DNA of 64,000 bases from Leptogorgia sarmentosa (Eukaryota), in NCBI GenBank assembly GCA_964658305.1, contig OZ210885.1, positions 6,076,001 to 6,140,000 on the forward strand. Reading direction: 5' to 3'. Both the position numbers and the translations under genes were made by a program. This document shows positions 8,863-54,932 of this stretch, piece after piece. Position 1 is the first letter of the stretch, and the number at the start of each line of letters is the position of its first letter. The notes beneath the pieces are model-generated. The model was given only the letters and a program-made list of their open reading frames with translations, was not told the DNA's origin and searched no databases.

Positions 8863-9000
8863 GTTCACCCGTTTCGTCCATTCTAAATGGGTAATAGGCA
8901 CACTTCTAAAATTTAGAATGCAGGATATAACCATCTCAGGTTGTTACCTAAGCTACCGGTGCCGCTAATTGCAGTCCCATGTTTTGAATGAAAAGTAAAA

Positions 9001-11091: not shown

Positions 11092-11200
11092 ATTAAAACA
11101 CTTGCCTAATAATTAACTTTTATCCCCTGTATTTGAGACCACCTCATGACATAGGTTTATGCGGGAAAGTCTGTAAGAAGTATATATTTGTGCAAAATGT

Positions 11201-11810
11201 TTGTCCTCCAAGTATATTTGTGTCAAATGTTCATCCTGTTTAATCATTGGTGGCTCCTTTGGCCATCAATGTCTCGAAAGACGTGAATTCAGCTTACTTG
11301 ATTGTGACAGAACGGATTTGTCAGTATTCCCCGAGTTTGCTACTGTGCAACGATGGGTAAAGGACATCGACGTATCACACAACAACATCACCGCCATCAA
11401 CATATCCGTGATTCTGAAAACATTTCCGAACCTGGTAGCGATCAATCTCCGTTATAACCCTATAACATGCATCACTGGTCCACCCCCGATAATAATAGAC
11501 AGCGACTGTCCCTTTTCATCAACAGTTTCTTTTACAACACACCAGAAATCAATACCCAAAACCACTAGTTCCTCGACTACTTCAACCTCCATCCCCACAA
11601 CAGTCCCCATTGGTAGTAATAAATCAACTTGTTTGGTGTTCATTATCGTCCCTGTGTGAGTCATTTGTGTCCTGTTTGTTTATCGCGCAAAACGCCGCCC
11701 AGCTCGTCCACCCAACTCATTCGCATTGGTAAACCTCAACGGATCCTCCGAGACTTTCGGCTCATTCTCATCCAGCGATAGTGAAAACACTTCGTATACT
11801 CGCAATTTAT
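11201..11810 (+). pseudogene. LRR / Thr-rich stalk / transmembrane protein (copy 1)
   Basis: LDC..VKDIDVSHNNI..FPNLVAINLRYNPITC, Thr/Ser/Pro stalk, hydrophobic LVFIIVPV*VICVLFVY followed by RAKRR; the stop is TGC in the copy near 31775. Confidence 0.7.
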
Positions 11811-12251: not shown

Positions 12252-13631
12252 ATGGAGAACGATGATGCCTTGCAAATTATCGAAACAGTGAGAAATGTTC
12301 AGCCGAGAAATGCGAGATTTGTTTATCTCATAACTTAAAGCCAAGCGGATCTATCTTTAGTTCCTGAGCGTGGGGCATTCGTGCTATTGGTTACACATGC
12401 TTTTCAAATTGCAGATCCTTCATTAGTTTGTAACATTTTGAACTGGGTCTGCAGCATGGAGCATCATAGTGATGGCGGAATTCACTATCATATGGCTGTC
12501 AAGCTTGAATCTCGGCGACGTTGGTTGAAATTTAGAAATTACCTCGACTCTAACCATGGTATCAAGGTAAATTTCAGCGGAGTTCATGTAGATTATTATT
12601 CTGCTTGGCTTTATGCTACAAAAGACGACAAAGAATATATACAGTCTCAGGAATCATCCTGATTTAACAAATTGCGATTTCCCAGTCACAACGAATGCTG
12701 GTTTGTGCGTGCAAAATAACGCTGTAGACAATGAATCTACTCCTGTTGCAGAATCCGCAGATGGCCGCAAACGAAAATGCAAGAGGATGAGCATTTTTGA
12801 TGTGTCACAGCTCGCAGTTTCCAAAATACGAACCTGGCTCGAACTTGTTGCCCTGGCGAATGAGCAAAAGAGAGAAGGAAAAAGCGATTTGGCCCAGTTC
12901 ATTGCAAATCGAGGATCAGAAGCAGTAGAGGAAGCTTTAACCGTTGCCTGGGAGTTGGAAGAGGCGAAGAAAAGGCTGGAAAGGCCCAAACTTACCTGAA
13001 TCGAGGTTCTGGGCAAAAAGTTGGAAGAGGAATGTGTGGATGGGTGGGTGCCTAGGTAAATGGTTAGTGATGGCCATTGACATCCTGAACAGAAACGGTA
13101 TCGATGTTACGGTATTTGCGGAGGCAGTACGCATATTGTTAGAGAAAGGTCGTGGAAAATACCACAACATTTATCTCAAGGGCCCAACAAATTGCGGTAA
13201 GACATTTCTGCTAGACCCACTTAACGTAATTTACAACACATTCAGCAATCTGCAATCCTGCTACCACTACTTTTGCCTGGGTTGGAGCTGAAGCTGCACA
13301 CGTCATTTTCCTGAATGATTTCAGATGGTCCAAGCAAATTATACCATGGCATGATCTTTTACTCATGCTAGAGAGTCAGTTAGTTCATTTACCAGCCCCT
13401 AAAAGTCATTATAGCAAGGACGCGACTCTGTCCAGTGATGTGCCACTATTTTGTACAGCGAAAGAAGAAATCAGTTTCGTGCAAGGAGGTGTTTTGGATG
13501 CTAGGGAGACGGAGATGATGAGAGTCCGGTGGAATGCTTTCAGTCTTCACTGGGAAATTCCTAGGGAAGAGCAAGTAGAGGTTGCGCCATGCCCCAGATG
13601 CTTCGCTGAACTAATTTTGCAGGCGCAATAG
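12252..13631 (+). pseudogene. rep: Rolling-circle Rep (HUH endonuclease + SF3 helicase), CRESS/parvovirus NS1-like, frameshifted
   Basis: Motif I VYLIT*SQAD, motif II HYHM, motif III YATK, Walker A GPTNCGKT, Walker B VIFLNDF, C-terminal MMRVRW. Confidence 0.85.
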
Positions 13632-14028: not shown

Positions 14029-15175
14029 CTATAGTGGAGTAAAATCGATTATAATATAATTACAGTATTTGGTATTTGGATCTGATTCCTTTTTGCTTAG
14101 TATAGCGTTGATGCGATTAGGCATACTTTCAAGTGTCCGATCAACAAGTTCAACACTTAAGTTATCTAAACACCAACATACTCGGTCATGAAAGTTCTGA
14201 AAAGATTCTTTGGTCAATCGCGTATTTATGGCTTCTTGTTCTAGCTGTTTCTTTACTATGTGAAAAATATTTTCAATTGGGTTTAAATCTGGAGACCTTG
14301 CAGGTATTTTATGCCATGTGCATTCAATACTATCGAGAGCTGATAACGCTACTCTGCTATTTTGGCAGGGGCAATTGTCCATCACAAATTTTGCGTTGCC
14401 TACTCCTCTTTGGACCAGCTTTGGCAAGGCATAGATTTAGGTTCCCTTTCACAAAGCGAGCACAAAAAAGGGACCGTCCATTTTTTCATATGCCTTTCTT
14501 AAAATTACTCCTTTACCATACGCAACAGCGACCATGAGATGCAAGCATCTACCTCCGGGCAACTCTTTACTCCCTTTACTTGTTATCTTTAGTCCTTCCC
14601 CTCGCTTTCTCCAGACACGTGATTTCGGTTGCAAGGCAGTTTTAAGTGGGTTGTATTTGTGAACGAATGAAACGCCGTCCAGATAGAACAAGATGTCATG
14701 CGTGTAGAACTTAGGAAAGTCTTTAAGTAATTTCTCAGCACTACGTGCATACTTTGTTCGAATTTTCTTGTCAGACTCACTTAATAATCCTTTCTTTCTT
14801 GCTTGTAAATGTTGGTAGCCAGCACGGTTAAGATACAAGGAAATCGTTCTTCGCTTTGCAATGCTCTCATCCAGGCCACTTTCATGTATAACAATGTATA
14901 ACATCTTTCACCGAAAAGTTTACGGTGGTCTTTCGTAGCGTCTTCACAGTACGCAGTAATACTCTTTCATCTCTTTTGTTGAGACGTTTCGGTCGTCCAA
15001 CTTTTCGATTGGAATTCTTGCTCACCATCTTTCCATGCATATTTGTGTTGCATATTTTATGAACAACTGACTTAGACACTCCACATCGCGTAGCAATTTT
15101 TCTATAACGCAGGTCAGTTTCATTTTTGTAGAAACGAATAAGGGCACTTGTTTCAGGACTAAGCTTACTCACCAT
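14029..15175 (-). pseudogene. Tc1-family DD34E transposase, frameshifted
   Basis: HTH + GRPKRL; FYLDGVSF; second D (MDNCPCQNS) to E (SPDLNPIE) spacing counted as 34 residues. Confidence 0.9.
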
Positions 15176-21929: not shown

Positions 21930-23665
21930 AATGAATGAATTAAGTTCCAAATATACTGGCAAAACAAATAGAGTGTCAGAATTAAATTTTAATAATCAAG
22001 AAATAATGGCACCTATGGATATTGCTGAAGCTTTTATTGACTATTTTTTTAGTGTTGGTGACGACCTGGCTGCATCTATACCAACCCTTGACCATGATCC
22101 GAGCTTTTATCTTAAAGCAATGGATAAGACATTTTCATTGCAATCTCCTACCTTTGAAACTGTTTTATAAACTTTTAAGTTAAATTGACGAGAAAAAATC
22201 TGTTGGGTTGGATGATATACCCAACAAATTACTGAAAATGGCTGCACAGGTGGTTGCACCTTCATTGACGGGAATATTTTCTGCATCAATACGTACAGGA
22301 ATATTCCCAAGTGAATGGAAGGCAAGCAGGGTGACACCAATATTCAAAAGTGGTCCTAAGAGTAATCCAAACAATTACCGACCAATTTCCATTATTCCTG
22401 CTATTGCAAAAATTTTTGAGAAAATTATTTCTGACCAATTACATGAATACCTAAACACTAATGAGATTTTAACTTCCTGCAAATCTGGTTTTAGATCTAT
22501 ACACAGTACGGTAACTGCAATGCTTGAAGCCACAAGTGACTGGTCCATGAATATTGACAATGGTTTAATCAATGGAGTAGTTTTTATTGATTTAAAAAAA
22601 GCATTTGACACTATTGATCACCAAATTATGTTACAAAAGCTAAGAAACTATAGTATTGATCAAATGAGTCTAACTTGGTTTGAATCTTATCTTACCAATC
22701 GAACTCAAAAGTGCAGTATTAACGACCAATTGTCAAATTCTGCCCCGGTGACTTGTGGTGTTCCCTAAGGTAGTAACCTGGAGCCCATACTTTTTCTGAT
22801 CTATATAAATGACCTTCCAAATTGCTTGAATCATGCTATACCTAGAATTTTTGCTGATGACACAAGTATAAGTTATTCGGCAAACACAACAGATGAGCTC
22901 CAAAATGTAATAAACTCTGAGTTAAAAAAGCTTAGTAGCTGGCCTATTACTAATAGATTAAGTCTAAATATTGTTAAAACGGAATTTATGGTAATAGGAT
23001 CTCAGCAAAAATTAAGTCCATAGATAGCGAAATAAACATTAGAATCAACGAAAATGAAATCACTAGGGTTGAATCGGTGAAATCCTTGGGAGTTTATATT
23101 GATAAACATCTTACTTGGCATGATCATATTTATAAACTATGTAAGAAAGTTGCATCTGCTATTGGTGCACTAAAGCGTGTTAGATCGTTTATACTATAGA
23201 CACATCCATACAAATATACCAAGCGATCATTCAGCCTTATTTCGACTATTGCTGCACAGTATGGGATGGCCTTGGGGAAACACTCGGTACTAAATTGCAA
23301 AACCGAGCAGCAAGAGTCATCATGAGATCAAGTTATGATACCGACGCAAGTGTATTATTAGATAATCTGCGTTGGGATCATTTGTCTTTAAGATGACAAA
23401 AGCTTAAACTTGGTTTTATGTTTAAAACACTTAAGAGTAATGCTCCCAGTTATTTACAATAATTCTTTTCCATTCGCGGAACTGGGTATAACCTAAGAAA
23501 TTCTGAAATGAAGCTGAATCTGCCTAAGCCATGAACAAATTACTTAAAACGAAGCTTTTGTTATAGTGGAGCACTATTGTGGAACAACCTTCTGCAAGAA
23601 ATAAGAAAGCTTCAAACACAGGCTAAATTTCAAAAAGCTGTTAATAAGTATTTTGATGAATAACT
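21930..23665 (+). mobile_element. 5'-truncated CR1/L2-clade LINE reverse transcriptase, degraded
   Basis: NYRPISIIP, FIDLKKAFDTIDH, GVP*GS, IYINDLP, FADDT, C-terminal KRSFCYSGALLWNNL. Confidence 0.92.
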
Positions 23666-24784: not shown

Positions 24785-25111
24785 TTACAATAAGCTACTC
24801 AATATGCTTAAAACAGGCGGTAAAAGGGCTGTTAACAGATTACCACCACCTTTTTGCTGAGTCAGTAAACGACGTTTTCTTACGCGTGAAATCTTTTTGC
24901 TTGCCAAACCTCTGAGATGTTTCTTGTGCCGCGACAAATGTTGTTTCTGCCTTTTTGTCAAGGGCGTCCCTTTTAACACGTTGTAACAGCATTCACAAAT
25001 GCTCAAAATGAGATCACTCGGTCCATGTTCTATAAGGACTTTTCGGACTTTTGGTTTACACTTTGCAAGTATTTGCAAGTAAGGCAGACTATCTCTCATC
25101 CTCTTCGACAT
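24785..25111 (-). CDS. Polinton/adintovirus basic core protein with GGG site and hydrophobic C-terminal helix (pX-like)
   Basis: ICECCYNVLKG..LSRHKKHLRGLA..KRRLLTQQKGGGNLLTALLPPVLSILSSLL. Confidence 0.7.
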   Translation of the reverse strand: MSKRMRDSLPYLQILAKCKPKVRKVLIEHGPSDLILSICECCYNVLKGTPLTKRQKQHLSRHKKHLRGLASKKISRVRKRRLLTQQKGGGNLLTALLPPVLSILSSLL

Positions 25112-25290
25112 CGTGAGATAAATAAACCGCATTTTACAAAAGTACAGTTTTATATACATTAATGACGAAGTAACGGAAAAATAAATGTCACGTGTCACAC
25201 ACACACTTCAGTTTCAATGAACTTAAAACATCTTTTGAATTCTTTTCTGTATATACACATTTACAAATCGTACGAACACTAACCGAAATC

Positions 25291-26092
25291 ATGGTTGCGT
25301 TACTTTTACTTGTTTTATTACATGGCTTCTTGGTCTGTGGAAAGCAGCAAGGGTGTAAATTGGTACGATTTGTGGGCGTACTAGATTGCGTCAATGTGGG
25401 TCTTCAAAATGTACTCATAATACAAAAAGATCGCGATGCCGTAAAGGTTTTGGACTTGGGGCAAAATAATATCACAAAATTGGATAGCAAGATCATGGCA
25501 GCATACCCAAACTTAAAGTTAATCGACGTGCGTGAAAATCCACGTATTTGCGGTGGCGTATTCCTAAGCGTAACAGTGAAGAGTGATTGCAAAATGAACA
25601 AAAGTTACCTCCCCTCATCGAATACCCCATCGCCATCTACCATCTTAACACGCACAATTCAAACCACTCTTCGACCATCGCCCACCAAGCCTTTCAACCC
25701 GACAGTACCATCGCCCCCAAAGACATCCGCAAACCCTAGTACGCATATTCCTCCCAATCCTTACACCCTAACAGAGTCAGAATACTCCGCAACCCTCTAA
25801 ATTCAGGTCAAGTTCTTTCTCCCTCCCCTCACCCTCATCATTCGTAAAACCCAAAAACCCTGTAACGGAGCATCGACGTGGCGATTATCCACAACTTGCG
25901 GTGTATCTGTCATCAGTAATTGCAACGTTGTTCTTCATAATTTTCTGCGTGAAATGTAAGCTGTGCATGCGTTGTCGCCGTCGAACCCATGAAAATGAGA
26001 ACGTGGTGATGGCGACAGTAAACTCTGTGAGGAACATTAGTGAAAGCTCCTCAGGTTCAAGTAACGAAATCTATAATGTTACAAGCGTGTAA
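25291..26092 (+). pseudogene. LRR / Pro-Thr stalk / TM protein (diverged copy 2)
   Basis: Signal-like MVALLLLVLLHGFLVCG; VLDLGQNNI, PNLKLIDVRENP; P/T stalk; TM VIATLFFIIFCV followed by RCRRR; stop at 25798. Confidence 0.7.
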
Positions 26093-26103
26093 TTATAAAA
26101 AAA

Positions 26104-27393
26104 CTAGGGATCCAAGGATAGTGCAAAGTTTCTAGGGCCTAGGTCGAACGTCGAACTTCTCATGCGCTGAACCTAATGCAAATGAGCTCAAACAAAGAAC
26201 TTGGCTCATTAACATTAGGTTCGGCACATGAAAAGTTCGACGTTTGACCTAGGCCTTAGAAGGCATTAAAATCATATTTTTTAAAAGAAAACTAAGGAAA
26301 CATTGTTGACGTGATACGAGAAAATAATCACTATTTTATTGTCTGGAAGCAACTGCCATCGCAGCAGCGCGCGTGTAAAGCAAATCAGATAAATCTCTGA
26401 CCTCTGACCTTTTTGAAATTATATACACATCGTACTGAACAAATGATCTTAAATGAGTTAAATCACAATGTGGCACGCTACTTCTGCGTCTTAATAATAT
26501 ATCCAGTTTATTCACAGTATCAGCCAACGTTAAATTTACTTTTGTATGCCTATATGTGGTTTAGTTCATTCTGTAAATCCCCGGTATTTTCGGGCAAACA
26601 AACAGCCCAAGCTTAGTGATGCCGTCGACCAGTGTTGTCGAGTCGGAGACGGCAAAAACAAACACGAAAGCTATAAATGTGAAAGCTCGCAAATATGTTG
26701 CCTATCATCAACCAATTTAAAATATGTGATGAGTTCTACTGTGTTACAGATCTTAGTTTGCCCGCAATGTTGGCCAACTAAATTTTTAATATAAATACGC
26801 ACGGCGGCTGTTAACAGTACTAAATTGTCCATGACAAATACAAGTTTTCTACAGAAATGATAATAAATTCAAATCTCTAGATTCATTGCTGATATAAAAA
26901 GAACATTTTAACTGCTTTATCAACGTATTCAAACATGTTGGTCACATTATATTATCATCATACTGGATTACTGATTCACGGCCCCACTCTTAGCGTCCGC
27001 CATATTGTGTAATTTCATTCCCCAGAAGTGCTGAGTTGCAATTTTTGCAAAAACTGAAATTCCGGAGGGGCGTCCGCCATTGTGTACTGTATTTCTGCGC
27101 GCTTCTTTAATCACATTTCACTTCTAACAAACTTTCATATCAATGAGAACAACTGCAAATAATGATGAGCAACGATATATAACTGCAATCGAATATTTTT
27201 TGTTCAAACATTTCAAGGATATCAGTCAAATACCGAGTTTCGCATGTCAGGAGAATTTGGGACGCTCCCCCCGGAGTTTACACTATGAATGACTGAATGA
27301 CTACATGACTACATGACTACATGACTGATGTGAATTTTCGCCACTCATCACAATACTGCAAAGTTTCTTTGAAACTTTGCACTAAAAACAAAA
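26104..27393 (-). mobile_element. Helentron-associated non-autonomous element (HINE/DINE-like), copy 1
   Basis: SubTIRs TAGTGCAAAGTTTC / GAAACTTTGCACTA, inner partial palindrome, (ATGACTAC)n microsatellite, CTAG end in a T-run; homologous to 42786-44072. Confidence 0.65.
26136..26255. mobile_element. Palindromic PIF/Harbinger-type MITE
   Basis: GGCCTAGGTCGAACGTCGAACTT...AAGTTCGACGTTTGACCTAGGCC, flanks TAG/TTA. Confidence 0.65.
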
Positions 27394-27507
27394 CGCATAG
27401 TATAGATTAATATTAAGATTTATATATTTTTTAGAACTTTTACATTTTGTTGGGAATATAAAATTATGCTGGGGTAAAAACTTAACATTGAATTCTGTGT
27501 CTCAGAG

Positions 27508-28062
27508 TCAGTTTCGTTTAACGTAAACAATCTGTCTTTCGTTAGGTAAAATATTTGTTCGTAATCTTAAGTCCTCCGGCATTAATTGATGAAGATCCAA
27601 TAGAAGATAGCCATAGGGTCTTTTTGTAGCATCGTTAAATGATTCTAGCAAATAACCGACATTGTTGGGATACATTTGACGTGCCAATGTCGTAATACCA
27701 AGTGAATCTCGAGGGTTTCGGAATATCAGCATGTAGTGAGAATTTAAGCTGATTGTCCTCGAAAGCTTACCAGGAGGAAATAGGTTTTGAGTAAGGAATA
27801 AAACAGATATTCCACGATGATCCACTGTAAAAAGGTCAGCTACGCGTTGATCATTAGAGCACTGCGACATTAGGTCGTCCAAAATCACCAGCGAATTGTC
27901 ATGCGCCTCTGTCATGTCATACAAGTTGTTTGGAAATCCCTGAACGAACTGTATGTTCGGTAAAGCCTCCGATAATTCGTCAAATTCTTTTTGAAACTCT
28001 CCAAAGCAATATATTACTTTAGAAGGTACAGAAAAAAACAGTTCCTCCAGGTTTCGTAACAT
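27508..28062 (-). pseudogene. Polinton/adintovirus A32/FtsK-like packaging ATPase lacking its Walker A N-terminus
   Basis: LVILDDLM (Walker B), HRGISVLFLTQNLF, RTISLNSHY, FRNPRD, PYGYLLLD, RLRTNI. Confidence 0.85.
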
Positions 28063-28360
28063 TGAGCGTTAAATAACAAGGGTTAAATAAGCCATAGCTC
28101 GACCAAAATTAACTACATTGATCTCGTAAAAAACTGTCGCGATATCTGGAGAACATGCAAGTATTGACCGATACATAGATTCGTGCTCGTCAAGTAAATA
28201 GTTTATATAATACGATAACATTCTCATATCAATGTCCACGTTATTTTTTTGAAGTTCATCCAACATTACCTCCATTCTACACTCAAACATAGACAAAAAT
28301 GAATGCATAAAAGTAAAAACGTGTTTATTTAAAATATGAAATACATAAGCAATAAGCCGA

Positions 28361-28900
28361 CTACTTAATGTTCATGGCTTGAAAACTTTGTGCTACATTA
28401 TCAACACAGTCATTATAATAGTTCCGTTTCTCTCTGCTCATCTTACAATGTTGCTCGGACATGGAAAAGTTGACCGGCTGTAGCGACCCGCATCCATCCT
28501 CGGGTACCCATTCGAAATATCGACACGAGTTCTCCTTCCCGTTTGGAAAGGTGAAGAACATACGACCCTTGTTGACGCCCTTTTTCTTAACCTTGAGAGT
28601 TGCACATGGAAACCCATGGTTACAGCTCGGCCGCATCACTGGTTGTACATCGCCCCACACCCAAAAGGAACACGGATTCCTCTTATCGGAACACACGAAA
28701 TACGGTCTTCCATAGCTCTCTTTCATCAGATCTTTAACCATGTGCATCTTTGCAAGTTTACCGTGTCCACCACACATCGGCTGTGGTTGATTCGTGGATC
28801 TCCAGGCATCAATCGCTTTTTCAAACATATATCCCTCGTCTTCCGAGCAGAAGAAATGACATGCTCTCAAGCAGGCTCTCCGTGCAAACACTTCATCGTT
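28361..28900 (-). pseudogene. GRF zinc-finger protein (copy 2)
   Basis: FEKAIDAW..CGGHGKLAKM..YGRPYFVC..CSFWVW..NKGRMFF..CRYFEW. Confidence 0.75.
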
Positions 28901-29003
28901 CAGGACAAATGTAACTAATATTTTCAAAAACCATGCACACTTATATACTTTTTTTTTCTCACTTATATGTCACTTCCGATCACGTGTTCATAAATCCAGC
29001 TAA

Positions 29004-29914: not shown

Positions 29915-31035
29915 TTAGGTATCTATATATTTGATTAAAAACCTCTCTCTCAAGACTTTGCTTATTACCGGCAGAATGGATATTGGTCGATAATTTTCAC
30001 ATTTACTTCTATTTTCGGATTTATAAATAGGGATTACTCTAGCCAATTTCCATTCATCTATATATATGCCAGATTTCAGAGACATGTCAAAAAAGGCTGT
30101 AAGTGATGGTGCAATTATGTACGATGACATTTTTAGAATTTTGGCAGGTATATTATCCATTTCAGTTGCCTTAGAAACTTTTAAATCACTTAAACTTGTG
30201 GCAACATTGTTTACATTAATATCGGCAAATTTAAAACATATGTCAGGGTAGCGTTCGATGTTTGCTTCAGGCATTTGGTCGTCACTCGAAATGTTATATA
30301 ATTGTTCTGATTCAGTTGCAATGTTGATTCCAACATTTATGAAATAATCATTGAAGGATTCAGCAATAGATTTATCGTCCGAAATGATATCATCATCGAT
30401 AATAAGCTGTTTAACGCTGGTTTGTTTTCCCTTTCGGCCTAATAAAGTATTTATCAGGGACCAACTTTTTTTAACATCTTTAGAGGAGTCCTGAATTTTT
30501 TCGCAGAAATATTTTGATTTTGCCTGCCGCATCTGTATATTCACTTTATTTCGTTCAGATTTGTATAATTCCCATTGGGCATGTGAATCATGTTTAACTG
30601 CCTGTTTTTTATGGAAGTCTCTCTTTCTCATAAGCTGTTTGATATTAGGAGTAATCCACGGAACAGGATTATCCTTTAACCTCTTACTTCGAAGAGGGGC
30701 ATGTCTGTCAAGAGCTTCGAGAAAGAGCGATTTCCACAATTGCCAGCAAATATTCGGATTCTCAGATTGAGTTACAATATGCCAGGGAAGCAGTGATATG
30801 TCTTGAATAAAATCGATTTCAACGAAATTTTTGAAATTGCGGACTTCCCTGGCAATTTTTCTAGACTTCGGTAGAATAAATTTTCTTACAAAGTAGACCA
30901 AACTGTGGTCAGATATTCCAAGGTGAATAACACCGGATTCTGAAATATATTCCGGTCTATTTGTCAAGATCAGATCAATTAAAGTTGCTGATGTTGGTGT
31001 TACTCTCGTTGGCTCAGTTATTAGTTGCCGGAGGC
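29915..31035 (-). mobile_element. CR1/L2 LINE fragment (end of endonuclease to start of RT)
   Basis: QLITEPTRVT..TLIDLILTN..ISDHSLV..PWIT..EWKLARVIPIYK..NYRPISILP. Confidence 0.9.
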
Positions 31036-31079
31036 GGTCCTTCCGTGGATATGGAGATGGTCGCATGGGAGCACGCTGC

Positions 31080-31210
31080 ATCTTTCGACTTATTTTAAAC
31101 TTTCCTTCTTCTTTAACATCTTGATACAGCCGCTCTACTCCACCAAGTCCTCCCGCACATTTCGAATCGTAATAAACACTCGATAAGTACTCATGTCCAT
31201 GATGACACAT
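31080..31210 (-). pseudogene. N-terminus of Polinton retroviral-like integrase
   Basis: YLSSVYYDSKCAGGLGGVERLY resembles the YY.P....FGG...LY start of Polinton integrases. Confidence 0.6.
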
Positions 31211-31245
31211 AAAATGAAAAGTATGTTAAGCAATGTTACCCTTTT

Positions 31246-38505: not shown

Positions 38506-41203
38506 CAGGGTGTATAAAAAAAAAGTATACTCGCAAAAAATGTCTTTTAGGCCGAAGCGCACGCACCCCATTGCAAACCATTGGTATATCTAAGTAGTTT
38601 GAGCCCTTCGGATACATCCTACACTAAAAGTTTGCACAAAACGACCATTTTATGACTACGAAAAGTGTTATAAAAAGCCATAGTAAAAATGGTTTGCGCG
38701 AAAAAATGTGAGGCGGAAAATGCAATTTGATTTGACAGCCTAAATCTATGGAACAAGTTTCATTAGTTATTCAAGTTTGAGAGCATTTCGTGCACACAAA
38801 CGCAAACGCGCGACGTTTGAAATTTCGGAATTTTAGCCTTTCAATTTCCGAACCTGATTTTGTGGTGACTTGTAGCTCATTAATGCGTTGCAAACAATTT
38901 GCATAAATTAAATTTTACAAACTGACAGGGTGTTGGAATTCCCAAATGACATCGAAGATGATAGTCGAGGTTACAAACCAGTGTTATTCTTCAAAATTTC
39001 CGCTATTTTGTTCTAAACGAAGCCCAACTCTGTTCATGATAACATGCAAGTAAGGCAAAACAAAGTAAACATGTATATGCGCGCATGGTGACGGTTTCGT
39101 AAAATAGGTATTCGAATACTTGCGTTATTCCCAGGTGGTTAGAACATGAGTGTGGCTGCATGCATTGCGATTAACCTTCTCATTCATTGTAATCATGGCT
39201 ATGCCACAGTTCACACCTCAGCAAAGATCATTTTTAGTGAGAGAATACCACCAAAATAACAATGAGGTTAGGAGAGTTCTCCAAAGGTTCCGTGAAGTTT
39301 ACCCTGGTGTTCGATGCCCGTCGCGAGCTACAGTTCATAAAAATGTAAGAAAGTACAGCATGCATGGCACAAGTTTCAATTTGAATAAGGGCAGGTCTGG
39401 TCGTCGGAGGACAGCAAGATGTCCGGAAAATATCGCGCCAGTAACACACGTGCTGGCTAATCAAGAAGCAGGTGAACAAAGGATAAGCGCCCGTCGTAGT
39501 GGTCTTGGTTTATCCTCAGCGACATTCAATCGCATTACCCGACTGGATTTGCAGCTGTTGATCCAAATGATCAAACGTCATCAGCTGTTCGATGGAGATT
39601 ACCAGCGACGGGTGAACTTCTGTCAGTGGCTGCTTTGTCAAAATCAACGTTTTCTTGAAAATGTAATTGTCGGCGACGAGGCAGGATTTGCCCTAAATGC
39701 TAGCGTAAACACCCATAACGTATTGTCCACATGGTGAACCGCCTTTAAACTTCGATTACCAACAAAACGATGATTGCCACAAGCTAACAGTATGGGTTGG
39801 TTTAATGGGTAACGGCAGCATCATTGGTCCCTTCTTTTTTCGCAATAATTTGGACGGCGAGGGCTACCTTCAGATGATAAACGAGCAAGTGCATCCCAGG
39901 TTAGGCAGAATGCATCGTTTTGGACCAAACAGGAATGGCCAATTCGGACGTCTTTGGTGGATACAAGACGGTGCAGCACCTCATAGGAGACGTATCGTTA
40001 CTGAGCGCTTGCAACAGCTGTTTGGTGAGCAAGTTGTAGCGTTAAATCACCAAATCGAATGGCCACCAAGATCCCCAGATTTAACACCATTAGATTGTTT
40101 TCTTTGGGGTTATTTGAAGTCGAAGGTTTACTTAACGCCACCTGCAAACCTAGACGAAATGAGAATCCGCCGTGAGATGGACGCCCTTAAGCGAAACAGA
40201 GGGATGGTTCGACGTGCTGTCAACGCCATGTTAACCAGAGCTGAGCTCTGCGTAGAAAGAAACGGGGGTCATGTAGAGGACTAACACTATCTGAATGTTC
40301 AATGATTAAAAAATGTAAATAGGTCAACATAAAGCTTTCTTGAAATAAAGTATAAATAAACGTTAATGTGAATAACTCAAGGTTGAACATGAGAAAATAC
40401 AAGTAGTTAAATCAAACGCAATTGCAGTATCATTAAAGTCATAAAACAACCAGAGAATACTGCAAGTAAAGCCTACATTTTATGAGACCGTGCATGCATA
40501 CACACATCCCGTTCCTCACTTGCATGTTATGAGCAGAGCTGGGCTCTGTTTAGAACAAGATAGGTGCCCTGTTGAAGAATAGCACTTTTTTCGAACTGAA
40601 GCCGAGTTTCAATAAGTCCTTAGCGGTCGCTCGTGGTTTCCGAGTGAACTCGTAGTGACCAAAAATAACAGTGTCGTTGAAATAGACTTTGTTCTTATCC
40701 CAGCGACATTTCTGTTTCTCCCTTACGGTCGCAAAACCTTTGCTCAAAAACAACGACCGAAAGCTAGAGATCTGTCTGTCAACACCCTGTCAGTTTGTAA
40801 AATTTAATTTATGCAAATTGTTTGCAACGCATTAATGAGCTACAAGTCACCACAAAATCAGGTTCGGAAATTGAAACGCTGAAATTTCGAAATTTCAAAC
40901 GTTGCGCATTTGCATGCACCAAATGCTCTCAAACTTGAATAACTTATGAAACTTGTTCCATAGATTTAGGCTGTCAAAACAAATTGCATTTTCCGCCTCA
41001 CATTGTTTCGCGCAAGCCATTTTTACTACAGCTTTTTATAACACTTTTCGTAGTCGTAAAATGGTCGTTTTCTGCAAACTTTTAGTGTAGGATGTATCCG
41101 AAGGGCTCAAACTACTTAGATATACCAATGGTTTGCAATGGGGTGCGTGCGCTTCGGCCTAAAAGACATTTTTCGCGAGTATACTTTTTTTTTATACACC
41201 CTG
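38506..41203 (+). mobile_element. Full-length DD41D (rosa/Visitor-type) Tc1/mariner element, ~430-bp TIRs, frameshifted transposase (about 39195-40284)
   Basis: TA|CAGGGTGTAT ... ATACACCCTG|TA; VGDEAGF, IQDGAAPH, WPPRSPDLTPLD with 41 residues between the 2nd and 3rd D. Confidence 0.92.
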
Positions 41204-46705: not shown

Positions 46706-47753
46706 TCAATTCACTTTAAAAAGTTTAAACACATTTTTATACCCTATTATGACAACTGCGGTCGACCACTATGACGTATGCGGACGACCGCTATGACATA
46801 CACATTTTTACATCAAAAAATCATCTTCAGAAACCGTCAGAACGTCTTCAGAAATTTCCGAGTGTCTCCAAACAGACCCACTAGACTACTCTCATGGTAC
46901 TTATTTATACCTACTGTATTGTCAATAAATATACAGGAAAATCTCTAAACACAACTACAATATCAGTCTATAAAACAGAAAAAGACCAGAGTTCGTTCTA
47001 TATCGGTCCAACTGTGCATGTTAAGAACTATAACTGTTGAAATGACATATAGCATTAATCTTGAAGACGTGAAGTTTTGAAGACCTACAACTTACTTTAT
47101 TTGTTTCCTTTCGTTCCCGTGCACAATGTTTTGAAACATTTAGGACATTTCCACAACGCCGCTTAGGGATTCTTCGTCAACACTGCCATCAGAATATTCA
47201 CTGGCGCGTTCACCTTCATGACTAACCATGTCAGAATTGTCGGATGAAGCCATTGCCAAAAATGTATTTCTGAATGCAGACAAATGAATAAAAAAGCTAT
47301 CTATTGACACCTGTTTCGCCTGTTCGAAAAAGATTGGTGCTATTTTATCAAGAGATATGGTCATTTCTGAGCAAGATTTGGAGGTCACTGTTGATTTGCT
47401 GCCAAGTGAATTCTGCCCTCTGGTCACTGATTTAAACCATTGTTTGCAGAGGGTTTGCACAATGCGCGAGCCAGCGAGCCACGCGAGTTATGCGAGCCAC
47501 GCGAGTCATGCGAGTCATGCGAGTCACCGTCACAGAGGTCACCGTGTTACCGCGTGCTTCTCAGACCTCAGTTCTGAACACTATAAAGTTTCCTCTTACC
47601 CTCTGCTGCGGAATCTCTATCCATCTCACTCAACAGTAGTACTTTCTCAATGTAAGTATCGATTCTGTCAATGACATTGCTTCATTACAAAAAAATGTTT
47701 TATTAATGAGCGCTCGATCTGTTTATGATTTTGCTATGTAAAACGTAAAACAG

Positions 47754-50700
47754 ATGGCAGATAGGCGTCTTCAATGTCTGCTCCAGGCGAACAAGAGAGG
47801 CTTTTCCCTATCCTTCGATCCATCAGGGGATCAAAACAGATGCTTCTATCAGTGTATTGCAAAGAATATGAATACTGGAGAAGAAAACGTCGTGGACATG
47901 ATCCAGTCCTACATGACAGCGAACCAATTTGTCACTACAAAAAGCGAGGTACTGCACACTTATTTATTTATATTTCTTTATTTATGTATTATTTATTTAT
48001 GTATGTAGTCTTAATATTCATTTATTCATTTATTCATTTATTCATTTATTCATTTATTCATTTATTCATTTATTCATTTATTCATTTATTCATTTATTCA
48101 TTTATTCATTTATTCATTTATTCATTTATTCATTTATTCATTTATTCATTTATTCATTTATTCATTTATTCATTTATTCATTTATTCATTTATTCAGGAT
48201 GGAGTAGTTAAAAGACAAGACTTGTGGGCATTTCTTTCCGATATCGACTTTCCGACCCTTGGATATAGGCCTTGTTCATGGGATGAATCGGTTAAAGCGC
48301 TTAAGAATGAAATGGCTAATCATGTTGTGATACAGTGTGCTGCATCACTCTTTTGCCTGAACATTAACATTATTGACTGGCAAGGGGTAAGCTATTTATT
48401 GCTTTTCAGCCAAGCTGCATGGCCAATTATCTTGTTACATGTATGTGTAACATATGTGTATATGAGTCACACATTACATTATGAACACATCTTGTATCAG
48501 TTGACAAATTGTAGAAATGCCTTCACAAAATTATGCATACATGTAGCAATAAATTAAGAATAAGTGGCATACATATGCATACAAACTCAGAAATATGTAC
48601 TAGTATTGAGATCCACATCAAAATACCTTGGTATACTCATTTGAATGGTGAATAAGACAAAAATGTGGGTTAATCCCTTTATCACTCTGAGTTGTTAAAT
48701 CATCTGGTGTTAGACAGAGTAGCTATAGAATAGTTATATGTAGAGGCAGATTTGGGCTGCTTGACAACTAGGGTTTGGGCTAATTATGACCACTTTAAAT
48801 TCTCTTACAGAGAATGACTGTGACAAATCCATTTCTTTGGCAAGGAATGCACAATGTTTATCTTGCATATACAGGGTCTCATTATATGCTATTAACACCA
48901 CAATTATGTGGTGTGGCCAAAGATAGAAAAGAACATGTTACAGGCCCAGGTAATTTTAACTGACAAGTGTAATTTCTAATTCATATACAGTACATACAGT
49001 AGTTAAATGTAATTACCCTGTTTTATATTTTTAGGGATAAAGGTTGAGAAACACAAAGGAGCTAAACAATTTCAGCAAAGTGGCCCTGAACAGTTTAATC
49101 CTGGCATAAGTGTGTTTAAAGGCCGCCCATTAAAGGTAGGAATGTATAGTTACCTAATTTCTATAGGCAAAGATTAACCTCAGTGTATGCATTGCTCATA
49201 GATGTATTGGCTTAAAACTGAGGATTACTGTAGATTCAATATACCAATTTTATGCCAAATTGAACCAGCTGTCAATGCCAACACTTTAAAGGAACAAGGA
49301 TAAACCAACAGCAAAAAGCTTTAGCATGATAGATAAATAAAATAAAATAAAATAATCATCTTGCATTATCTGATATTTCCACATTAGATATTTAGTTCTC
49401 TTGTGTTCCTATATGCAAACAATATTATAGTATATTTTGACATTTCATAGCTTCATGATTGTCAGGATCCAGTGATTGTCATTTCTGATGACGACAGTGA
49501 TGTCAAAACAGCTGTTGTTGACATATCTAGCACAGTAAGTTGGATTAAATTGTGTATATATGGACAATTGTGAAGTAGTATACACTTATTAATAACATTG
49601 CATGGCCTTCCATTAATTAATGTTTATATCCGTTTTATAAAATAAAATAAAAATACATGGTTAAATAATTTTTCATTTTTTGTCATGGATTATTAAGTGA
49701 TAAGTGTTGCATTATATAAAGGCTGTACAGTGTTTACAGTATTTAGCTTTTAGATATAATAGCCTTAACTTACTGTATTTTTTACTATACAAAGGGTTCT
49801 CAGTCTGATGAAGAAATAATATCGACTAAGAGTTCTGACAGTGACATAATTGTTGGAAAGAAGAGATCAAGAAAACGAAAAAGATGCAGAACTACCAATG
49901 TAAGTGAAATGCTTAATGCATTCCATCTTGGTTTCTTGGTAATTGTGGAGCAAAATTAAGTAAAGTATTTACTGTATGTACATTTTCCCCCATTTAATGT
50001 ATCCACTGTTAGTTGAATATTACACTATATCATCTGAGTTTACTACCTTTGATATACAGTACGTATGTGCAATTTGGTAACCCTGTGGCCCTCATAGTTT
50101 CCTTGTCCAATAATTTTTGCTTTAACATAGGATGATAGTTCTATGGAACGGCTTATTACGGTGTTGAGTGGCATGAGTTCTAATGACACCACCCCAGTTA
50201 AGGATGTGAAACCTGAACGATGCAGTGGCCCATGCACAAAAAAGTTGTTTGCAGGAGATGAGTAAGTCTACAGGGTGTATCAAAAAAAGGAGACCTTTAG
50301 AAATCGGTCTTATTGTTGTGATTTGAATGGTTGAGCGCGACCGAGGCACAGAAGCGTCAAATATTGACAGGATGTATTGTTTGGTGTACATGCAAATTTC
50401 TTGCCAAGCGCTGTGTGGCAAGCATCTCAGTGTGCGTTCGATCAATGAGCATTGATTTTATTATGTTCATGTACCCATGGGATTAACATGCATATGAGCA
50501 TTCAGATCACAACAATAAGACATGATTTCTAAAGGTCTCTTTTTTTGATACACCCTGTATGGAGGTGCACTAACTTGCAACCTAGATGAGATCAACATAG
50601 ATATTATAGATACTGTCATGTGCATTCTATTGATTTTCCATCAAGCTTTCAGACCATGTACTCACTGCTCCGTTGACTATATGCATGCGTGCAGTAATAT

Positions 50701-53236
50701 TGCAAACTTTAGTTTACATTAATTTATACTTTTCCGTAGATTATTTCCACATTAGGTTGTACTGATGCAGATCTGTGTATCTTCTCTTAGGGACACTACC
50801 TTTTTGAAACGAGGCAGTCGCCTGTACCTCAATCAAGATGATGTTGACGCCATGGAGACCTTGACTGTGACAAAGGTGCCCCCAACTCCGGTTGGCCCGG
50901 CTAGGTATGCTGTGGAGTATAATGACAAAGATCCCTTGGCATCAGTTACTGACCACTGGAACTGGAACCGTGCACAACCATGCAAAAGAAAAGGTTTTTG
51001 CAAAGAGGGAAGACGCACTTTACAAACTTGTCGTGGCTCATTAGAATGTTCTAATCAACAGTGTCCATACCGAAAAATTTACCAGCGTTCTAATCAGGTG
51101 GATTTTAGCATAAAGAAAAAATGTACACACTGCAAAGAAACTCCTACAACTATTTCCTGTTCAGCAAGAAAATACGTGGAGAATGATCGCTGTCACAAGC
51201 GAATGACAGTTATTTATATTGGCGAGCATGACTGTACTCCAAGACAAATAGAGAAAAAGCCAGACAAGCATGATGTTGAGAACATTCTTCGCACAAGACC
51301 AACAATCACCACAAGCCAACTTCAGATTGATACAGTGAGAGAAGCACTACTTAGCGGCAAGGATGCACAGGAGGTACAAGATGTGGCAATGACGTACAGC
51401 AATACAAGACATCTGTTGCATCTTCGCACCTGTGTCAACAACAAAACTAAGCCGGGAGGTTCGGATGTAGCCGCTGTCAATCTTTTGCAACAGGATTTCC
51501 AAAAACGAAATCTAGACGAGAACCTCATTTTAAAAGTTGGCGAGGATTTTGTAATTTTGTCTTCAGCACAAAAAATACGCCTGGGAGCTCTTATAACTTT
51601 GGGTTATGTGGATGAGCCTGTTAGCCTGGACGGCTGCGAGAGTCACTCAAAAGACTTCACCGAATTAGAGCTGACAACCTACTATCCAGTTCTGCGACGA
51701 AACGTTAAACTTGTAAGCATGTTTGCCCCAAAGCCAGGCGAAAACTCCGAAAACGTGGAAATTATGGTGAACACCTTTGATGAGGCGGTAAACAAAATCC
51801 TCCCATCCGTTGCCCGCGAGTACGGGATTGATCCAACTCCATTTGCTGGGAAAGGACTTGATCCCCAGTCATATGTTGGAGATGAAGGTGGGGCCCTTTG
51901 GTGTGGTCTTGCTAAAGCTAAAGGGGTCAGCGTGAAGAGTAAAACAATTTCAGACGTTTTCCACATAAAGCAAGATATTCGGCGCCACCTAAAATATTTC
52001 AAGGTAAAAAAGGATCAAGAAAACTTTCAAACCCTTATGTCTGCTGCGTGCAATGCCCCTACCTCAATCCAGGCAGATGAAGCGGAAAAGGCGCTGGAAA
52101 GGTTAATTGAAAAAAAATCTTCCAACCCTGCCAAAATGAAAAACTTTAAAAATTGGTGGTGGCGAAGACGATGTAGGTGGCAGCAGTGGTGTAAAACTGA
52201 ATCTTCAACCTCTGCATCATCTGCAGAAGTTGCCAATGCCAAGTCGCTTAGTGCCTCGGGCTTTAGGAAACGCCTGTTGGATGTGGTTACTACTGAGTGT
52301 TCAGCTGCTATCCTTGAAGCAGCTGAGATCAGAAGGCAAAGCGAAGGGTTGAAAACTGTTGGGCGAGGACCATCATCAGCTGATCGTGCACAAAATCGGG
52401 CGACAAAATTATTGTCTAGTGAAGATGCCTGTGCTACTGCTGTACAAAACATTGCCGAAAATGCCGATTTGATGACAGCAAGATCGGTTTCTTTAACTGA
52501 CATTGAAAGTGCCCACATGGATTATCGTGTGAATACTAGAGACAGTCACCGGTCAGATAAAACCAAACGCTTGTCAGGACAAGTTAAAAAAAGATCTTCA
52601 CATTCAGTGACCAAACATCAACTACGCTATTTTGAAAAAAATGTCGAAAATGTTCATATGGATCTCTTGAAATGCGATAGCAGTATGACAGAATTTAAAT
52701 TTAAATTACTGGACACCATGGGTTACCTCGAAGATATAATTCTTTCCAAAGATACAACTAGCTGTTCGTCTTCATGGTGTTCAAGCAAATGCCATCATTT
52801 ACTTTGGATCCTTCACCGAGTATTTAATTTTGATAAAAATAATCCAGTTATTTATAAGCAGAAATTTTCCAAATCTGATTGGAGTAACATTATCACGGCC
52901 TTTCCAGAAAATTTGCCTCTCGCAAACATCCCGGAAATAAATCATCAGGGGTATATTGTCAATGTTCGTAATTCAAGTATCGATGCCAAATGTGCTGTGT
53001 GCAAAAAAGAGCTGGTCAACGGGGATGTCCAGGTTGTAACTGAAGGGCCTTACAGAACAATACACCGAAAGTGGATTAAACGTACATTTTTTTTCTGCCC
53101 AACAATAAAATGCATAACAAAGGTTCCACGAAACTCGTTCATCCAACCGTATTGTCCATCAAATATGGAAATCCAATACGATGACCGTTTGACGTTAGAA
53201 CAAAGAAACTTAATCAACATTTTTAGCAAAGGATAA
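47754..53236 (+). CDS. 8-exon OTU / GCM-like Zn / MULE transposase / SWIM / PARP-like Zn-finger protein, predicted 1129 aa
   Basis: Exons 47754-47948, 48198-48386, 48811-48949, 49035-49135, 49451-49534, 49795-49899, 50131-50261, 50791-53236; all GT-AG, phase-compatible, no stops (3390 nt); GDQNRCFY..GSHY, SLDGCESH, VGDEGG, DVFH, CSSSWCSSKCHH. Confidence 0.8.
48015..48196. repeat. (TTTATTCA)n octamer microsatellite in intron 1
   Basis: About 22 perfect units ending at the splice acceptor. Confidence 0.95.
50271..50557. mobile_element. CAGGGTGT-ended MITE in intron 7, TA TSD
   Basis: TA|CAGGGTGTATCAAAAAAAGGAGACCTTTAGAAATC...GATTTCTAAAGGTCTCTTTTTTTGATACACCCTG|TA. Confidence 0.9.
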
Positions 53237-54234
53237 ATAATTGGAAAAAAAGGTTTCACTTGATCTTCATTAGAGACATATAATGGATCTATGATGTGTT
53301 GTTGTTCCTACTAACAATGTATATATAATATATAGACCGGGTCATTGCTTTCTATTTTGTTTCGTCAGATTGATGAAGATATTTTTAGATGTTTTCGATG
53401 ACAATTACAACGTTATGCCTCGTAGATTATTTAGGCTCGCCTGAAAGCATAACTTATTGTGCATGGTTACATAAGGTTTCTTGAAAAGTGGATATCATGC
53501 TCTAGATCATTTTTTCATATTAATGATATCAAAAAGTGAACAAAAACACCTAAAATTAGTTTTGTGTTATGAAATTGGTCACATAAAATCATTTTTCATG
53601 GCTCACACGCTTGGCTCGCATGACTCGCATGGCTCGCACAGTCGCACGCTTGGCTCGCATGACTCGCATGGCTCGCACGCTTGGCTCGCATGACTCGCTG
53701 GCTCGCACTATGTTAATACTCGTTTGCAGAGGGATGCCATGATATCCCTTATTTCGAACTACCAAAGTGGGTTGAGCCATAAAGGTTACACTTTACCTAT
53801 TTATACAGACGCAGAAGAGGAAAATTGGCTATTCTACTTTCCTGGTAGCTCATGTGACATTGAGAAACTGCACTTGCATGATGAAATACGCGGATACTGG
53901 TTGGACAAGAGTCAGAAAACCTCATCAGAATCAGAATTAAAGTACAAGCTTCTTGGTGTCAATTCATGCATTAAATGTTGTGTGCTGGGATGGGGAACTG
54001 CGATCTTTGAGGTTTAAGAACAACCACCCGCTATCTGATGGTGCTACAGTTATTCTGCCAACACAGTTTCATTCGTCTGTTTTAAGATGCTTAAATGAAC
54101 AAGGGTTTCTTTAATTACGAACTTTCATCATTGTCCAGATTGTATTTTTGGATAATGAAGTTGAAGTACTCTTTGAAGAACAATTACTATGTTCCCCATA
54201 GTTAGGAATAAGAGGTATAATGTAACATATTGAC

Positions 54235-54932
54235 TAGCCTGTGTCCCAGTCCACTACACCCCATTGTGAGTGGACTGTGCAATAATCTCAAATTTCCCGT
54301 CCAGCGACTTTACATAAAAGTTGTCAAATTTATGCGACGTCATCAACACGTGAGAGCATTAGTAAATTTATGCTAATAATTATATAATAAACATGGCGAC
54401 CGCCGAAATGCTCATGAATATTAAAGATACGAAGAAGCCTTTGATGTCGTTAAACATGTGTTCCAAGTAGATCAACTTTATGACGACCAGATCAGTTTGA
54501 TAAAAGCATTTTTTAATGGCTCGAATATATATTTCAATGCTCCAACAGGCTACGGAAAATCTATCGTACTATATCAATCTCTTCCATGGGTATGCGATAT
54601 ACTTCATGACGTTCGAAACTCTCGAAATGGGTCGAATACATCCAAATCCTCAGCGAATATATATCGCCGACGCTTTCATATACGATCGTTGCACAATGAA
54701 ATTGTAACACATGTTTAACGACATCAAAGGCTTCTTCGTATCTTTTATTCGTGAGCATTTCGGCGGTCGCCATGTTTCTTATATAATTATTAGCATAAAT
54801 TTACTAATGCGCTCACGTGTTGATGATGTGCGCATAAATTTAACAACTTTTATGTAAAGTCGCCGGACGGGAAATTTGAGATTTTTGCACAGTCCACTCA
54901 CAATGGGGTGTAGTGGACTGGGACACAGGCTA
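54235..54932. mobile_element. Non-autonomous AcademH-type element, ~225-bp TIRs, 9-bp TSD CATATTGAC, RecQ-like helicase remnant
   Basis: TAGCCTGTGTCCCAG...CTGGGACACAGGCTA; TSD at 54226-54234 and 54933-54941; APTGYGKS Walker A. Confidence 0.8.

What the first reader, a model, noticed from the sequence alone, without database searches (positions are those of the whole stretch)
47451..53721. Apparently intact Mutator-like transposon encoding a spliced OTU-protease / transposase fusion
The ORF track shows only the last exon (823 aa), but seven upstream GT-AG exons join in phase into 1129 aa. The product has an OTU-like catalytic set (GDQNRC...GSHY), a SUMO-interaction-like VIVISDDDSD, an NLS-like KKRSRKRKR, a GCM/WRKY-like Cys/His domain, a MULE-like core (D..D, DVFH), a SWIM-like finger and a PARP-type finger. 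The perfect 9-bp TSD and absence of stops suggest recent activity in an otherwise decayed region. Inference: a deubiquitinase/SUMO-reading module that counters silencing or degradation, analogous to Ulp1-carrying plant MULEs.
Basis: partly seen in the sequence, partly recalled or inferred. Interest (0 to 1): 0.75.

Follow-up and report, generated by a model that had tools for sequence, protein, structure and literature searches.

The report
Active Mutator transposon carrying OTU protease
This is an intact Mutator-family jumping gene that sits at different genome positions in different samples of its host, and its transposase is predicted to be fused to a ubiquitin-protease-fold domain that likely shields it from the host's ubiquitin/SUMO disposal system.

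Summary
Observation confirmed. The 6271-bp element (47451-53721) has a 9-bp TSD and foldback-type TIRs; eight GT-AG exons give 1129 aa without stops. Mobility: the empty site is in 4 of 4 runs laid, the right end has three other flanks, and one second site has its own 9-bp TSD. One run splices two junctions outright, two more indirectly. Coral and crinoid homologs carry the same fusion. A homolog's predicted N-terminus is an OTU fold (Z 12.0; 50 of 50 rows OTU). The core has MULE D-D-(C/D)xxH-E residues, though Pfam MULE misses it and the fold match is weak. GCM/WRKY, SWIM and PARP-finger domains hold up. In the wider clade (788 clusters) 8 of 36 long relatives examined have an N-terminal OTU. 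SIM-like motifs follow OTU in 8 of 12 carriers versus 3 of 18 non-carriers. Protease activity and role are untested, and the usual third catalytic residue is Met. OTU-bearing MULEs are in print (Medicago, Hydra MuDR-6_HM), so this is a new variant, not a new kind. The scan earlier noted fungal GCM-MULEs with a different (USP-like) protease.

The parts
47442..47450 (.). left copy of 9-bp target site duplication GTTTGCAGA
   Evidence: single copy at the empty site in 4 of 4 runs
47451..47527 (+). left TIR: 15-bp terminal segment plus 7 subterminal GCGAG-core repeats (about 9-bp period)
   Evidence: same end with another flank in run X1
47754..47948 (+). exon 1 (aa 1-65): OTU-fold N-half, putative catalytic Cys30 at 47841-47843
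   Evidence: fold from homolog
48015..48196 (.). (TATTCATT)n microsatellite, 22.8 copies, in intron 1
48198..48386 (+). exon 2 (aa 66-128): OTU-fold middle
   Evidence: spliced to exon 3 in X8
48811..48949 (+). exon 3 (aa 129-175): putative catalytic His152 at 48880-48882; His+2 is Met
49035..49135 (+). exon 4: conserved 30-aa motif of unknown role (17 and 21 of 30 identical in a coral and a crinoid homolog)
49451..49534 (+). exon 5: SIM-like motifs VIVISDDDSD and VVDISS (acceptor 49451 or 49466)
49795..49899 (+). exon 6: acidic linker and basic NLS-like KKRSRKRKR (49861-49887)
   Evidence: spliced in X8
50131..50261 (+). exon 7: linker
   Evidence: spliced on both sides in X8
50271..50557 (.). 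nested Tc1/mariner-type MITE (TA-flanked) in intron 7, present unchanged in the X7 copy and removed by splicing
50791..53236 (+). exon 8 (aa 315-1129, stop at 53234-53236)
50834..51244 (+). WRKY-GCM DNA-binding domain with core C395, C438, H461, C463 and a four-Cys insert C401, C406, C426, C429
51599..52336 (+). MULE-type catalytic core: D595 (51629), D679 (51881), D703xxH706 (51953-51964), W778, E794 (52226)
52649..52906 (+). SWIM-type finger (C973, C978, C982, H984) and following helices, resembling MEKK1 and giant-virus SWIM proteins
52940..53233 (+). PARP-type zinc-finger fold (C1049, C1052, C1084, C1089; third ligand His in 2 of 7 distant relatives)
53594..53721 (-). right TIR with 9 GCGAG-core repeats
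   Evidence: same end with three other flanks in X1, X2, X7; similar end in locus L003
53722..53730 (.). right copy of the 9-bp TSD

Best explanation
This is an intact Mutator-superfamily (MULE) DNA transposon found at different sites in different samples, whose spliced gene is predicted to make one 1129-aa transposase with an N-terminal OTU-fold domain that likely works as a SUMO-guided deubiquitinase protecting the transposase and its DNA complex from ubiquitin-dependent removal. Shown: ends, 9-bp TSD at two sites, empty site, two spliced junctions, fusion in homologs, conserved Cys and His. Inferred from MULE biochemistry (Muta1, PMC5499845): the WRKY-GCM domain binds the GCGAG subterminal repeats, the D595/D679/E794 core with DxxH cuts the ends and inserts them with a 9-bp stagger. 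Inferred from folds only: the PARP-type finger contacts broken or nicked DNA. Most speculative: the acidic SIM-like motifs dock on SUMOylated proteins (the transposase itself or repair/silencing factors at the site) and the OTU trims ubiquitin there. My odds by step: mobile MULE 0.97; one fused protein 0.9; OTU is an active ubiquitin-family protease 0.65; SUMO-guided, self-protective use 0.4.
For: Ends and mobility; X7's copy differs at 1 listed position over the pieces laid inside the element. Fusion: four independently annotated homologs from two Porites species, Paramuricea and the crinoid Anneissia; exon-sized genomic fragments from other genomes break off at the positions of introns 1-3. 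OTU fold: Foldseek best hits OTUD3 E 1e-4, DUBA, OTUD1; VIA Z 12.0, rmsd 2.7, 127 aligned, 50 of 50 rows OTU proteases; Atlas first hit PF02338, 0.92. Cys30 in 13 of 16 aligned rows; His152 in 6 of 9 rows covering it, the other 3 being misaligned or intronic. OTU kept at 82 of 158 and 83 of 157 identical residues versus coral and crinoid. Wider clade: Pfam OTU in 8 of 36 long relatives, 4 above the cut-off. SIM-like motif after OTU in 8 of 12 carriers (1.6 expected by shuffling) versus 3 of 18 non-carriers (3.0 expected), six copies in the crinoid protein. Core: D 35 of 36, D 34 of 34, CxxH 31 and DxxH 2 of 34, E 27 of 29 in distant relatives; Atlas neighbours are MULE clusters.
Against: No enzyme or transposition assay. 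His+2 is Met in all properly aligned close homologs, and the Cys motif (G-[DE]-[QR]-N-R-C) departs from G-D-G-N-C; a profile of this OTU barely detects the distant relatives' OTUs (best correct-place E 0.34). Pfam OTU and MULE hit neither the window's exons nor the 20 close homologs. The OTU fold was modelled on homolog P0053, not on the window's protein. The core fold match is weak (Z 5.8, rmsd 13.6 to ISCth4; model pTM 0.32). The SIM pattern was written after seeing the sequences, carriers are kin, and among the 8 distant carriers only 4 have it. 28 of 36 distant relatives showed no Pfam OTU and 2 carry a kinase instead, so OTU is not required across the clade. X8 is one run, not on record as RNA, and also holds an unspliced contig near the 5' end. 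3 of 16 rows have Tyr for Cys30.
Confidence: 0.5

Rival explanations
1. The OTU is an active deubiquitinase but acts in trans on host chromatin or repair proteins (silencing marks, repair-pathway choice at the excision site) rather than on the transposase itself.
For: Proposed for Ginger1 OTU/Ulp1 domains as activators of DNA repair (PMC2836005); NLS-like and SIM-like motifs flank the OTU; PARP-type finger suggests break-site work.
Against: Fusion to the transposase in one chain favours local action; no substrate data of any kind.
Confidence: 0.2
2. The OTU is a self-processing protease that cuts the long disordered linker and releases the mature transposase.
For: Suggested for Medicago MULE-OTU fusions (PMC1702500); 100-900 aa low-complexity linkers separate OTU and GCM domains; loss of the His+2 Asp/Asn could mean changed specificity.
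Against: I did not look for, and did not notice, a conserved cleavage motif in the linker; SIM-like motifs are not needed for self-cleavage.
Confidence: 0.13
3. The OTU is a weak or non-catalytic ubiquitin-binding or scaffold domain.
For: Non-canonical Cys loop and His+2 Met; no Pfam OTU hit for the close family.
Against: Cys and His are both kept from corals to a crinoid; A20-type OTUs work without an acidic His+2 (recalled, no call); distant relatives keep canonical motifs.
Confidence: 0.14
4. A domesticated, immobile host gene derived from a MULE.
For: Seven introns, spliced transcript, high protein conservation across phyla.
Against: Empty site in 4 of 4 runs, three other insertion flanks, second 9-bp TSD, TIRs shared with a 63%-identical relative.
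Confidence: 0.02

Closest known systems
MULE transposases with OTU: Medicago truncatula group (PMC1702500) and Hydra MuDR-6_HM (PMC6446971, Table 1, 'Ovarian Tumour Gene')
   Same: MULE transposase fused to an OTU papain-like domain; MuDR-6_HM is also cnidarian
   Different: Medicago OTU is C-terminal, here N-terminal and spread over three exons; MuDR-6_HM is listed as 5227 bp without TIRs or Zn finger. I could not obtain its sequence, so it may or may not belong to this clade.
Muta1 (Aedes aegypti) and other foldback MULEs (PMC5499845)
   Same: 8-10-bp TSD, short terminal motif plus subterminal tandem repeats, (C/D)xxH 15-45 aa after the second D (here 24), W before the E
   Different: No protease mentioned in the passages read; here GCM-type two-zinc domain, SWIM, PARP-type finger, seven introns, asymmetric terminal 14 bp
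Ginger1 transposons with OTU or Ulp1; OTU in animal Helitrons; Ulp1 in hydra, lancelet and plant Mutators (PMC2836005)
   Same: Transposase fused to a ubiquitin/SUMO-family cysteine protease, with introns, in cnidarians
   Different: Ginger1 has a Gypsy-integrase core and C-terminal protease; Ulp1 is a SUMO protease, not OTU
GCM1 transcription-factor domain (PDB 1odh; PMC1702500)
   Same: WRKY-GCM fold with a four-Cys insert between the core cysteines; best Foldseek hit (E 3.9e-4), 127 of 157 residues aligned
   Different: HxC rather than HxH end (GCM ligands recalled); 14-16% identity, no sequence-profile hit; WRKY domains score as high by Z (8.8 vs 7.9) over fewer residues
IS256-family ISCth4 TnpA (PMC7780238)
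   Same: D-D-(C/D)xxH-E with helical insertion: 66/21/107 spacing there, 84/24/115 here
   Different: Bacterial copy-out/paste-in element without the zinc domains; fold match weak

Membership tests
Mutator/MULE superfamily | 8-10-bp target site duplication | tested here: met
   9 bp at the window site and at a second site in X1; single copy at the empty site
Mutator/MULE superfamily | TIRs, in foldback members with subterminal tandem repeats | tested here: met
   conserved in L003
Mutator/MULE superfamily | DDE triad with (C/D)xxH 15-45 aa after the second D and W before E | tested here: met
   D595 19/20, D679 18/20, D703 20/20, H706 19/20, W778 20/20, E794 20/20; CxxH 31 of 34 in distant relatives; definition from PMC5499845
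Mutator/MULE superfamily | RNase H-like fold with helical insertion domain | tested here: inconclusive
   ISCth4 Z 5.8 (rmsd 13.6, 211 aligned), Hermes 5.5, RAG1 5.3, intasome 4.7; secondary-structure order fits; below the tool's trust level
Mutator/MULE superfamily | Match to the MULE sequence family (PF10551/PF00872) | tested here: inconclusive
   no Pfam hit in 20 close or 36 distant members; Atlas features place the core next to MULE clusters, 0.96 and 0.92
Mutator/MULE superfamily | WRKY-GCM-fold DNA-binding domain N-terminal and SWIM C-terminal to the core | tested here: met
   Pfam SWIM in 6 of 36 distant relatives; architecture per PMC1702500
Mutator/MULE superfamily | Cut-and-paste with hairpins on flanking DNA | not testable with these tools
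   needs in vitro cleavage assay
OTU cysteine proteases | OTU papain-like fold | tested here: met
   on homolog P0053: Z 12.0, rmsd 2.7, 127 aligned; Atlas TM 0.69 on P0033
OTU cysteine proteases | Catalytic Cys and His | tested here: met
   Cys30 13 of 16; His152 in all 6 properly aligned rows; geometry in the model not inspected
OTU cysteine proteases | Third catalytic Asp/Asn two residues after His (usual, not universal; recalled) | tested here: not met
   Met in the window and close homologs; Asp in 3 of 8 distant OTUs. An invariant Asp22 (16 of 16) might substitute; untested
OTU cysteine proteases | Cleaves ubiquitin or a ubiquitin-like modifier | not testable with these tools
   needs assay
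GCM1-type domain | Zn-ribbon insert between the two core cysteines of the WRKY-GCM fold | tested here: met
   four insert cysteines invariant in 15 of 15 close and 36-37 rows of distant relatives; definition from PMC1702500
GCM1-type domain | Sequence homology to animal GCM factors | tested here: inconclusive
   profile search of PDB sequences did not list 1odh; no Pfam GCM hit; fold match only
MuDR-6_HM group (Repbase) | Transposase sequence kinship | not testable with these tools
   four family motifs absent from the 3 supplementary files held, which appear to be tables and tree files, not the alignment

The most novel reading that the evidence does not exclude
An undescribed, still-active animal MULE lineage, missed by the Pfam MULE model, that carries a SUMO-targeted deubiquitinase (OTU plus SIM, swapped for a kinase in some branches) and a two-zinc GCM-type DNA-binding domain: the transposon-borne form from which Babu et al. 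2006 proposed the animal gcm transcription factors arose, and one that has moved between corals and crinoids.
Probability: 0.25. Interest if true: 0.82.

Novelty: new variant of a known kind. Interest (0 to 1): 0.58.

Why it matters
Ubiquitin/SUMO proteases recur on several transposon superfamilies, and their role has been guessed at since 2006-2010 (processing, repair activation, anti-silencing); the papers I read report no test. Here is a complete copy with defined ends, a partly confirmed splice form and insertion polymorphism, so one Cys-to-Ala or SIM mutation in a transposition assay would test the question. The clade's GCM-like two-zinc domain bears on where gcm transcription factors came from, and an active element could serve as a marker or genetic tool in corals and relatives.

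Tried and rejected
No whole genome is held, so copy number was not measured; contig depths in X1 (two junctions at 65 and 70, element end 137) fit two copies but depth is no copy number. No RNA holder listed; 7 of 15 listed runs held next to none of the element's words, which proves no absence. A 5' non-coding exon with donor 47652 is not supported: an X8 contig runs through it. A 12-bp TSD (the GGG after the right copy equals the element's first bases) is rejected by the second site. Pfam on the window's exons and close homologs gave nothing usable. A search for fused homologs with the crinoid N-terminus found only itself among 499 candidates, a sensitivity limit since others turned up. PDB sequence search with the N-terminal alignment: 0 hits. 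No relative in viral contigs, plasmids (2 chance-level hits); a 15-mer TIR scan of viral contigs gave 91 single matches, not followed. An IS256 transposase for a profile-profile test could not be obtained. The wide VIA search listed no transposase in its top 50. The tree is the quick version, midpoint-rooted, 26 rows, most without host names: horizontal transfer is not tested. The open frames either side of the insertion match nothing in Pfam, PHROGs or PDB. No complex prediction was run. Papers not held: Phantom, Yuan and Wessler 2011, AcademH; Repbase could not be searched, so prior naming of this family is not excluded.
Full report
Ends. The element runs 47451-53721 (6271 bp) between two copies of GTTTGCAGA. 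Each end has about 15 bp of loosely matched terminal sequence, then GCGAG-core repeats in register (7 left, 9 right; about 0.17 expected per 150 bp from the window's density). A metagenome relative with a 63%-identical transposase (L003) ends in the same way, with repeats starting at positions 16 and 24. This is the foldback layout described for Muta1 (PMC5499845, passages).

Mobility. Contigs of four runs were laid on the parts either side of the intron-1 microsatellite. All 4 hold the empty site: left flank, one copy of the 9-mer, right flank. That contig differs from the window's flanks at several positions, so it is another haplotype or a paralogous copy, and since Muta1 excises precisely in over 90% of events it could also be an excision product. 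The right end 53721 is followed by three other sequences in X1, X2 and X7. In X1 the left end is preceded by, and the right end followed by, the same 9-mer GCACAAATG: a second, independent TSD with identical termini (that both junctions belong to one copy is inferred). X1 also holds the window's own junctions and may be the source sample. X7's interior pieces show one difference from the window. The element is therefore recently or currently mobile.

Gene. Eight exons join to 1129 aa with no stop. Run X8 (kind not on record) has one contig spanning 49899>50131 and 50261>50791 at GT..AG, a loose end matching the start of exon 3, and 18 further bases that by depth arithmetic lie at the end of exon 5. 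Annotated proteins from Porites evermanni, P. lobata, Paramuricea clavata and Anneissia japonica carry the same N-terminus fused to the same transposase; UniRef names the two Porites ones OTU domain-containing. 37 exon-sized fragments from other genomes lose similarity at the positions of introns 1-3. The exon 5 acceptor is ambiguous (1129 or 1124 aa).

OTU domain. A model of homolog P0053 (residues 1-160 mostly pLDDT 60-85) matches only OTU proteases: OTUD1 Z 12.0, rmsd 2.7, 127 aligned, 50 of 50 rows OTU; Foldseek agrees. The window's domain is 52% identical to the near-identical P0051. Cys30 and His152 are conserved, but His+2 is Met and the Cys loop is atypical, so activity is likely, not shown.

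Transposase. Exon 8 has 36 homologs at 47-100% identity. Its model (mean pLDDT 68.5, pTM 0.32) matches GCM (E 3.9e-4), WRKY (Z 8.8) and PARP-1 zinc fingers (Z 8.7, rmsd 3.1, 88 aligned). The SWIM region resembles MEKK1 SWIM (E 0.0054) and giant-virus SWIM proteins. The core matches ISCth4, Hermes and RAG1 only weakly (Z 5.3-5.8), but its residues are clear: D595, D679, D703xxH706, W778, E794 are kept in 18-20 of 20 homologs, and the Atlas places it beside MULE clusters.

Wider clade. A profile search found 788 clusters at E<=0.001. I examined 36 of the 150 listed, chosen by length (528-2001 aa). They keep the eight zinc ligands of the GCM-type domain almost without exception and show the usual MULE pattern with CxxH in 31 of 34. 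Pfam finds OTU at the N-terminus of 8, a protein kinase in 2, SWIM in 6, MULE in none. Their OTUs have canonical Cys loops, so the window's OTU is either a fast-diverged version or a separate capture. A SIM-like motif lies between OTU and GCM domain in 8 of 12 OTU carriers (1.6 expected) and in the N-terminal extension of 3 of 18 non-carriers (3.0 expected); the crinoid protein has six copies. The pattern was set after seeing the data and the rows are related, so this is a lead. That such motifs bind SUMO is recalled from Daxx/PML-type SIMs and comes from no call.

Mechanism. Transposition is inferred from Muta1: binding to terminal motif and subterminal repeats, cleavage, strand transfer with a 9-bp stagger. 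I think it most likely that OTU plus SIM form a SUMO-guided deubiquitinase that keeps the DNA-bound transposase from being removed; action on host repair or silencing factors, self-processing and a non-catalytic role remain open.

Hosts. The nearest named relative is from the octocoral Paramuricea (79% over the aligned part); crinoid proteins are 56-67% identical to coral ones, about as much as coral lineages are to each other (58-69%). The host is probably an anthozoan. Transfer between phyla is possible but untested.

Prior knowledge. MULE-OTU fusions are in print: C-terminal in Medicago (PMC1702500, passages) and Hydra MuDR-6_HM (PMC6446971, section 3 parts 2-3 and supplement search). OTU or Ulp1 on Ginger1, Helitrons and Mutators is discussed in PMC2836005 (passages), and OTU is a routine accessory-domain filter in PMC5751038 (one passage). 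PMC1702500 describes the Zn-ribbon insert as specific to GCM1 and proposes it entered a MULE-associated domain; this clade has that configuration on a transposase. Earlier scan notes report GCM-MULEs in fungi (unchecked), which makes the GCM link less unique. PMC7780238 (passages) gave the IS256 spacing; PMC13359780 and PMC10027918 had no OTU or GCM mention in term searches. Ten literature searches showed no description of an N-terminal OTU-SIM-GCM-MULE-SWIM-PARP-finger element; Repbase and most subscription papers were not searchable, and the Dupeyron alignment file was not among the supplements I saw.

Verdict. Real, intact, recently active; a new variant of a known kind. Interest 0.58.

Noticed in passing
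window 54235-54932: 698-bp foldback element with 233-bp arms at 95% identity, ends TAG...CTA, perfect 9-bp TSD CATATTGAC and an internal helicase motif-I remnant (Pfam DEAD E 0.006); looks like a non-autonomous AcademH-type element (family features recalled; paper not held).
   Followed up: partly
window 38506-41203: TA-flanked Tc1/mariner-type element with about 436-bp inverted arms and a transposase split over two frames; its terminal sequence is shared with the MITE in intron 7 of the MULE.
   Followed up: partly
window 47288-47441 and 53722-54017: Open frames either side of the insertion are in the same phase; no family match. Run X8 has a contig across the empty site. Other haplotypes have more than 1 kb extra between 47307 and 47326.
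   Followed up: partly
P0249, P0261: Relatives of this transposase with an N-terminal Ser/Thr protein kinase domain (E 6e-29, 2e-35) in place of OTU.
   Followed up: no
P0023 residues about 220-560: Crinoid homolog has a tandem array of acidic/basic repeats each with a SIM-like core, a possible poly-SUMO reader.
   Followed up: partly
window 49046-49135: 30-aa motif after the OTU, better conserved than the OTU itself (17-21 of 30), unmodelled and of unknown role.
   Followed up: no
window 24785-28068, 12941-13631, 11177-11659, 25174-25800: Fragmentary frames that by eye resemble Polinton/adintovirus-type packaging ATPase and SF3 helicase genes (recalled; no Pfam or PHROGs hit) and duplicated LRR frames.
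   Followed up: no
window 5068-8894, 14029-14907, 22184-22768, 28361-28969, 29915-31225: Decayed BEL/Pao retroelement pieces, a second Tc1-like transposase remnant, reverse-transcriptase fragments and a GRF zinc-finger frame.
   Followed up: no
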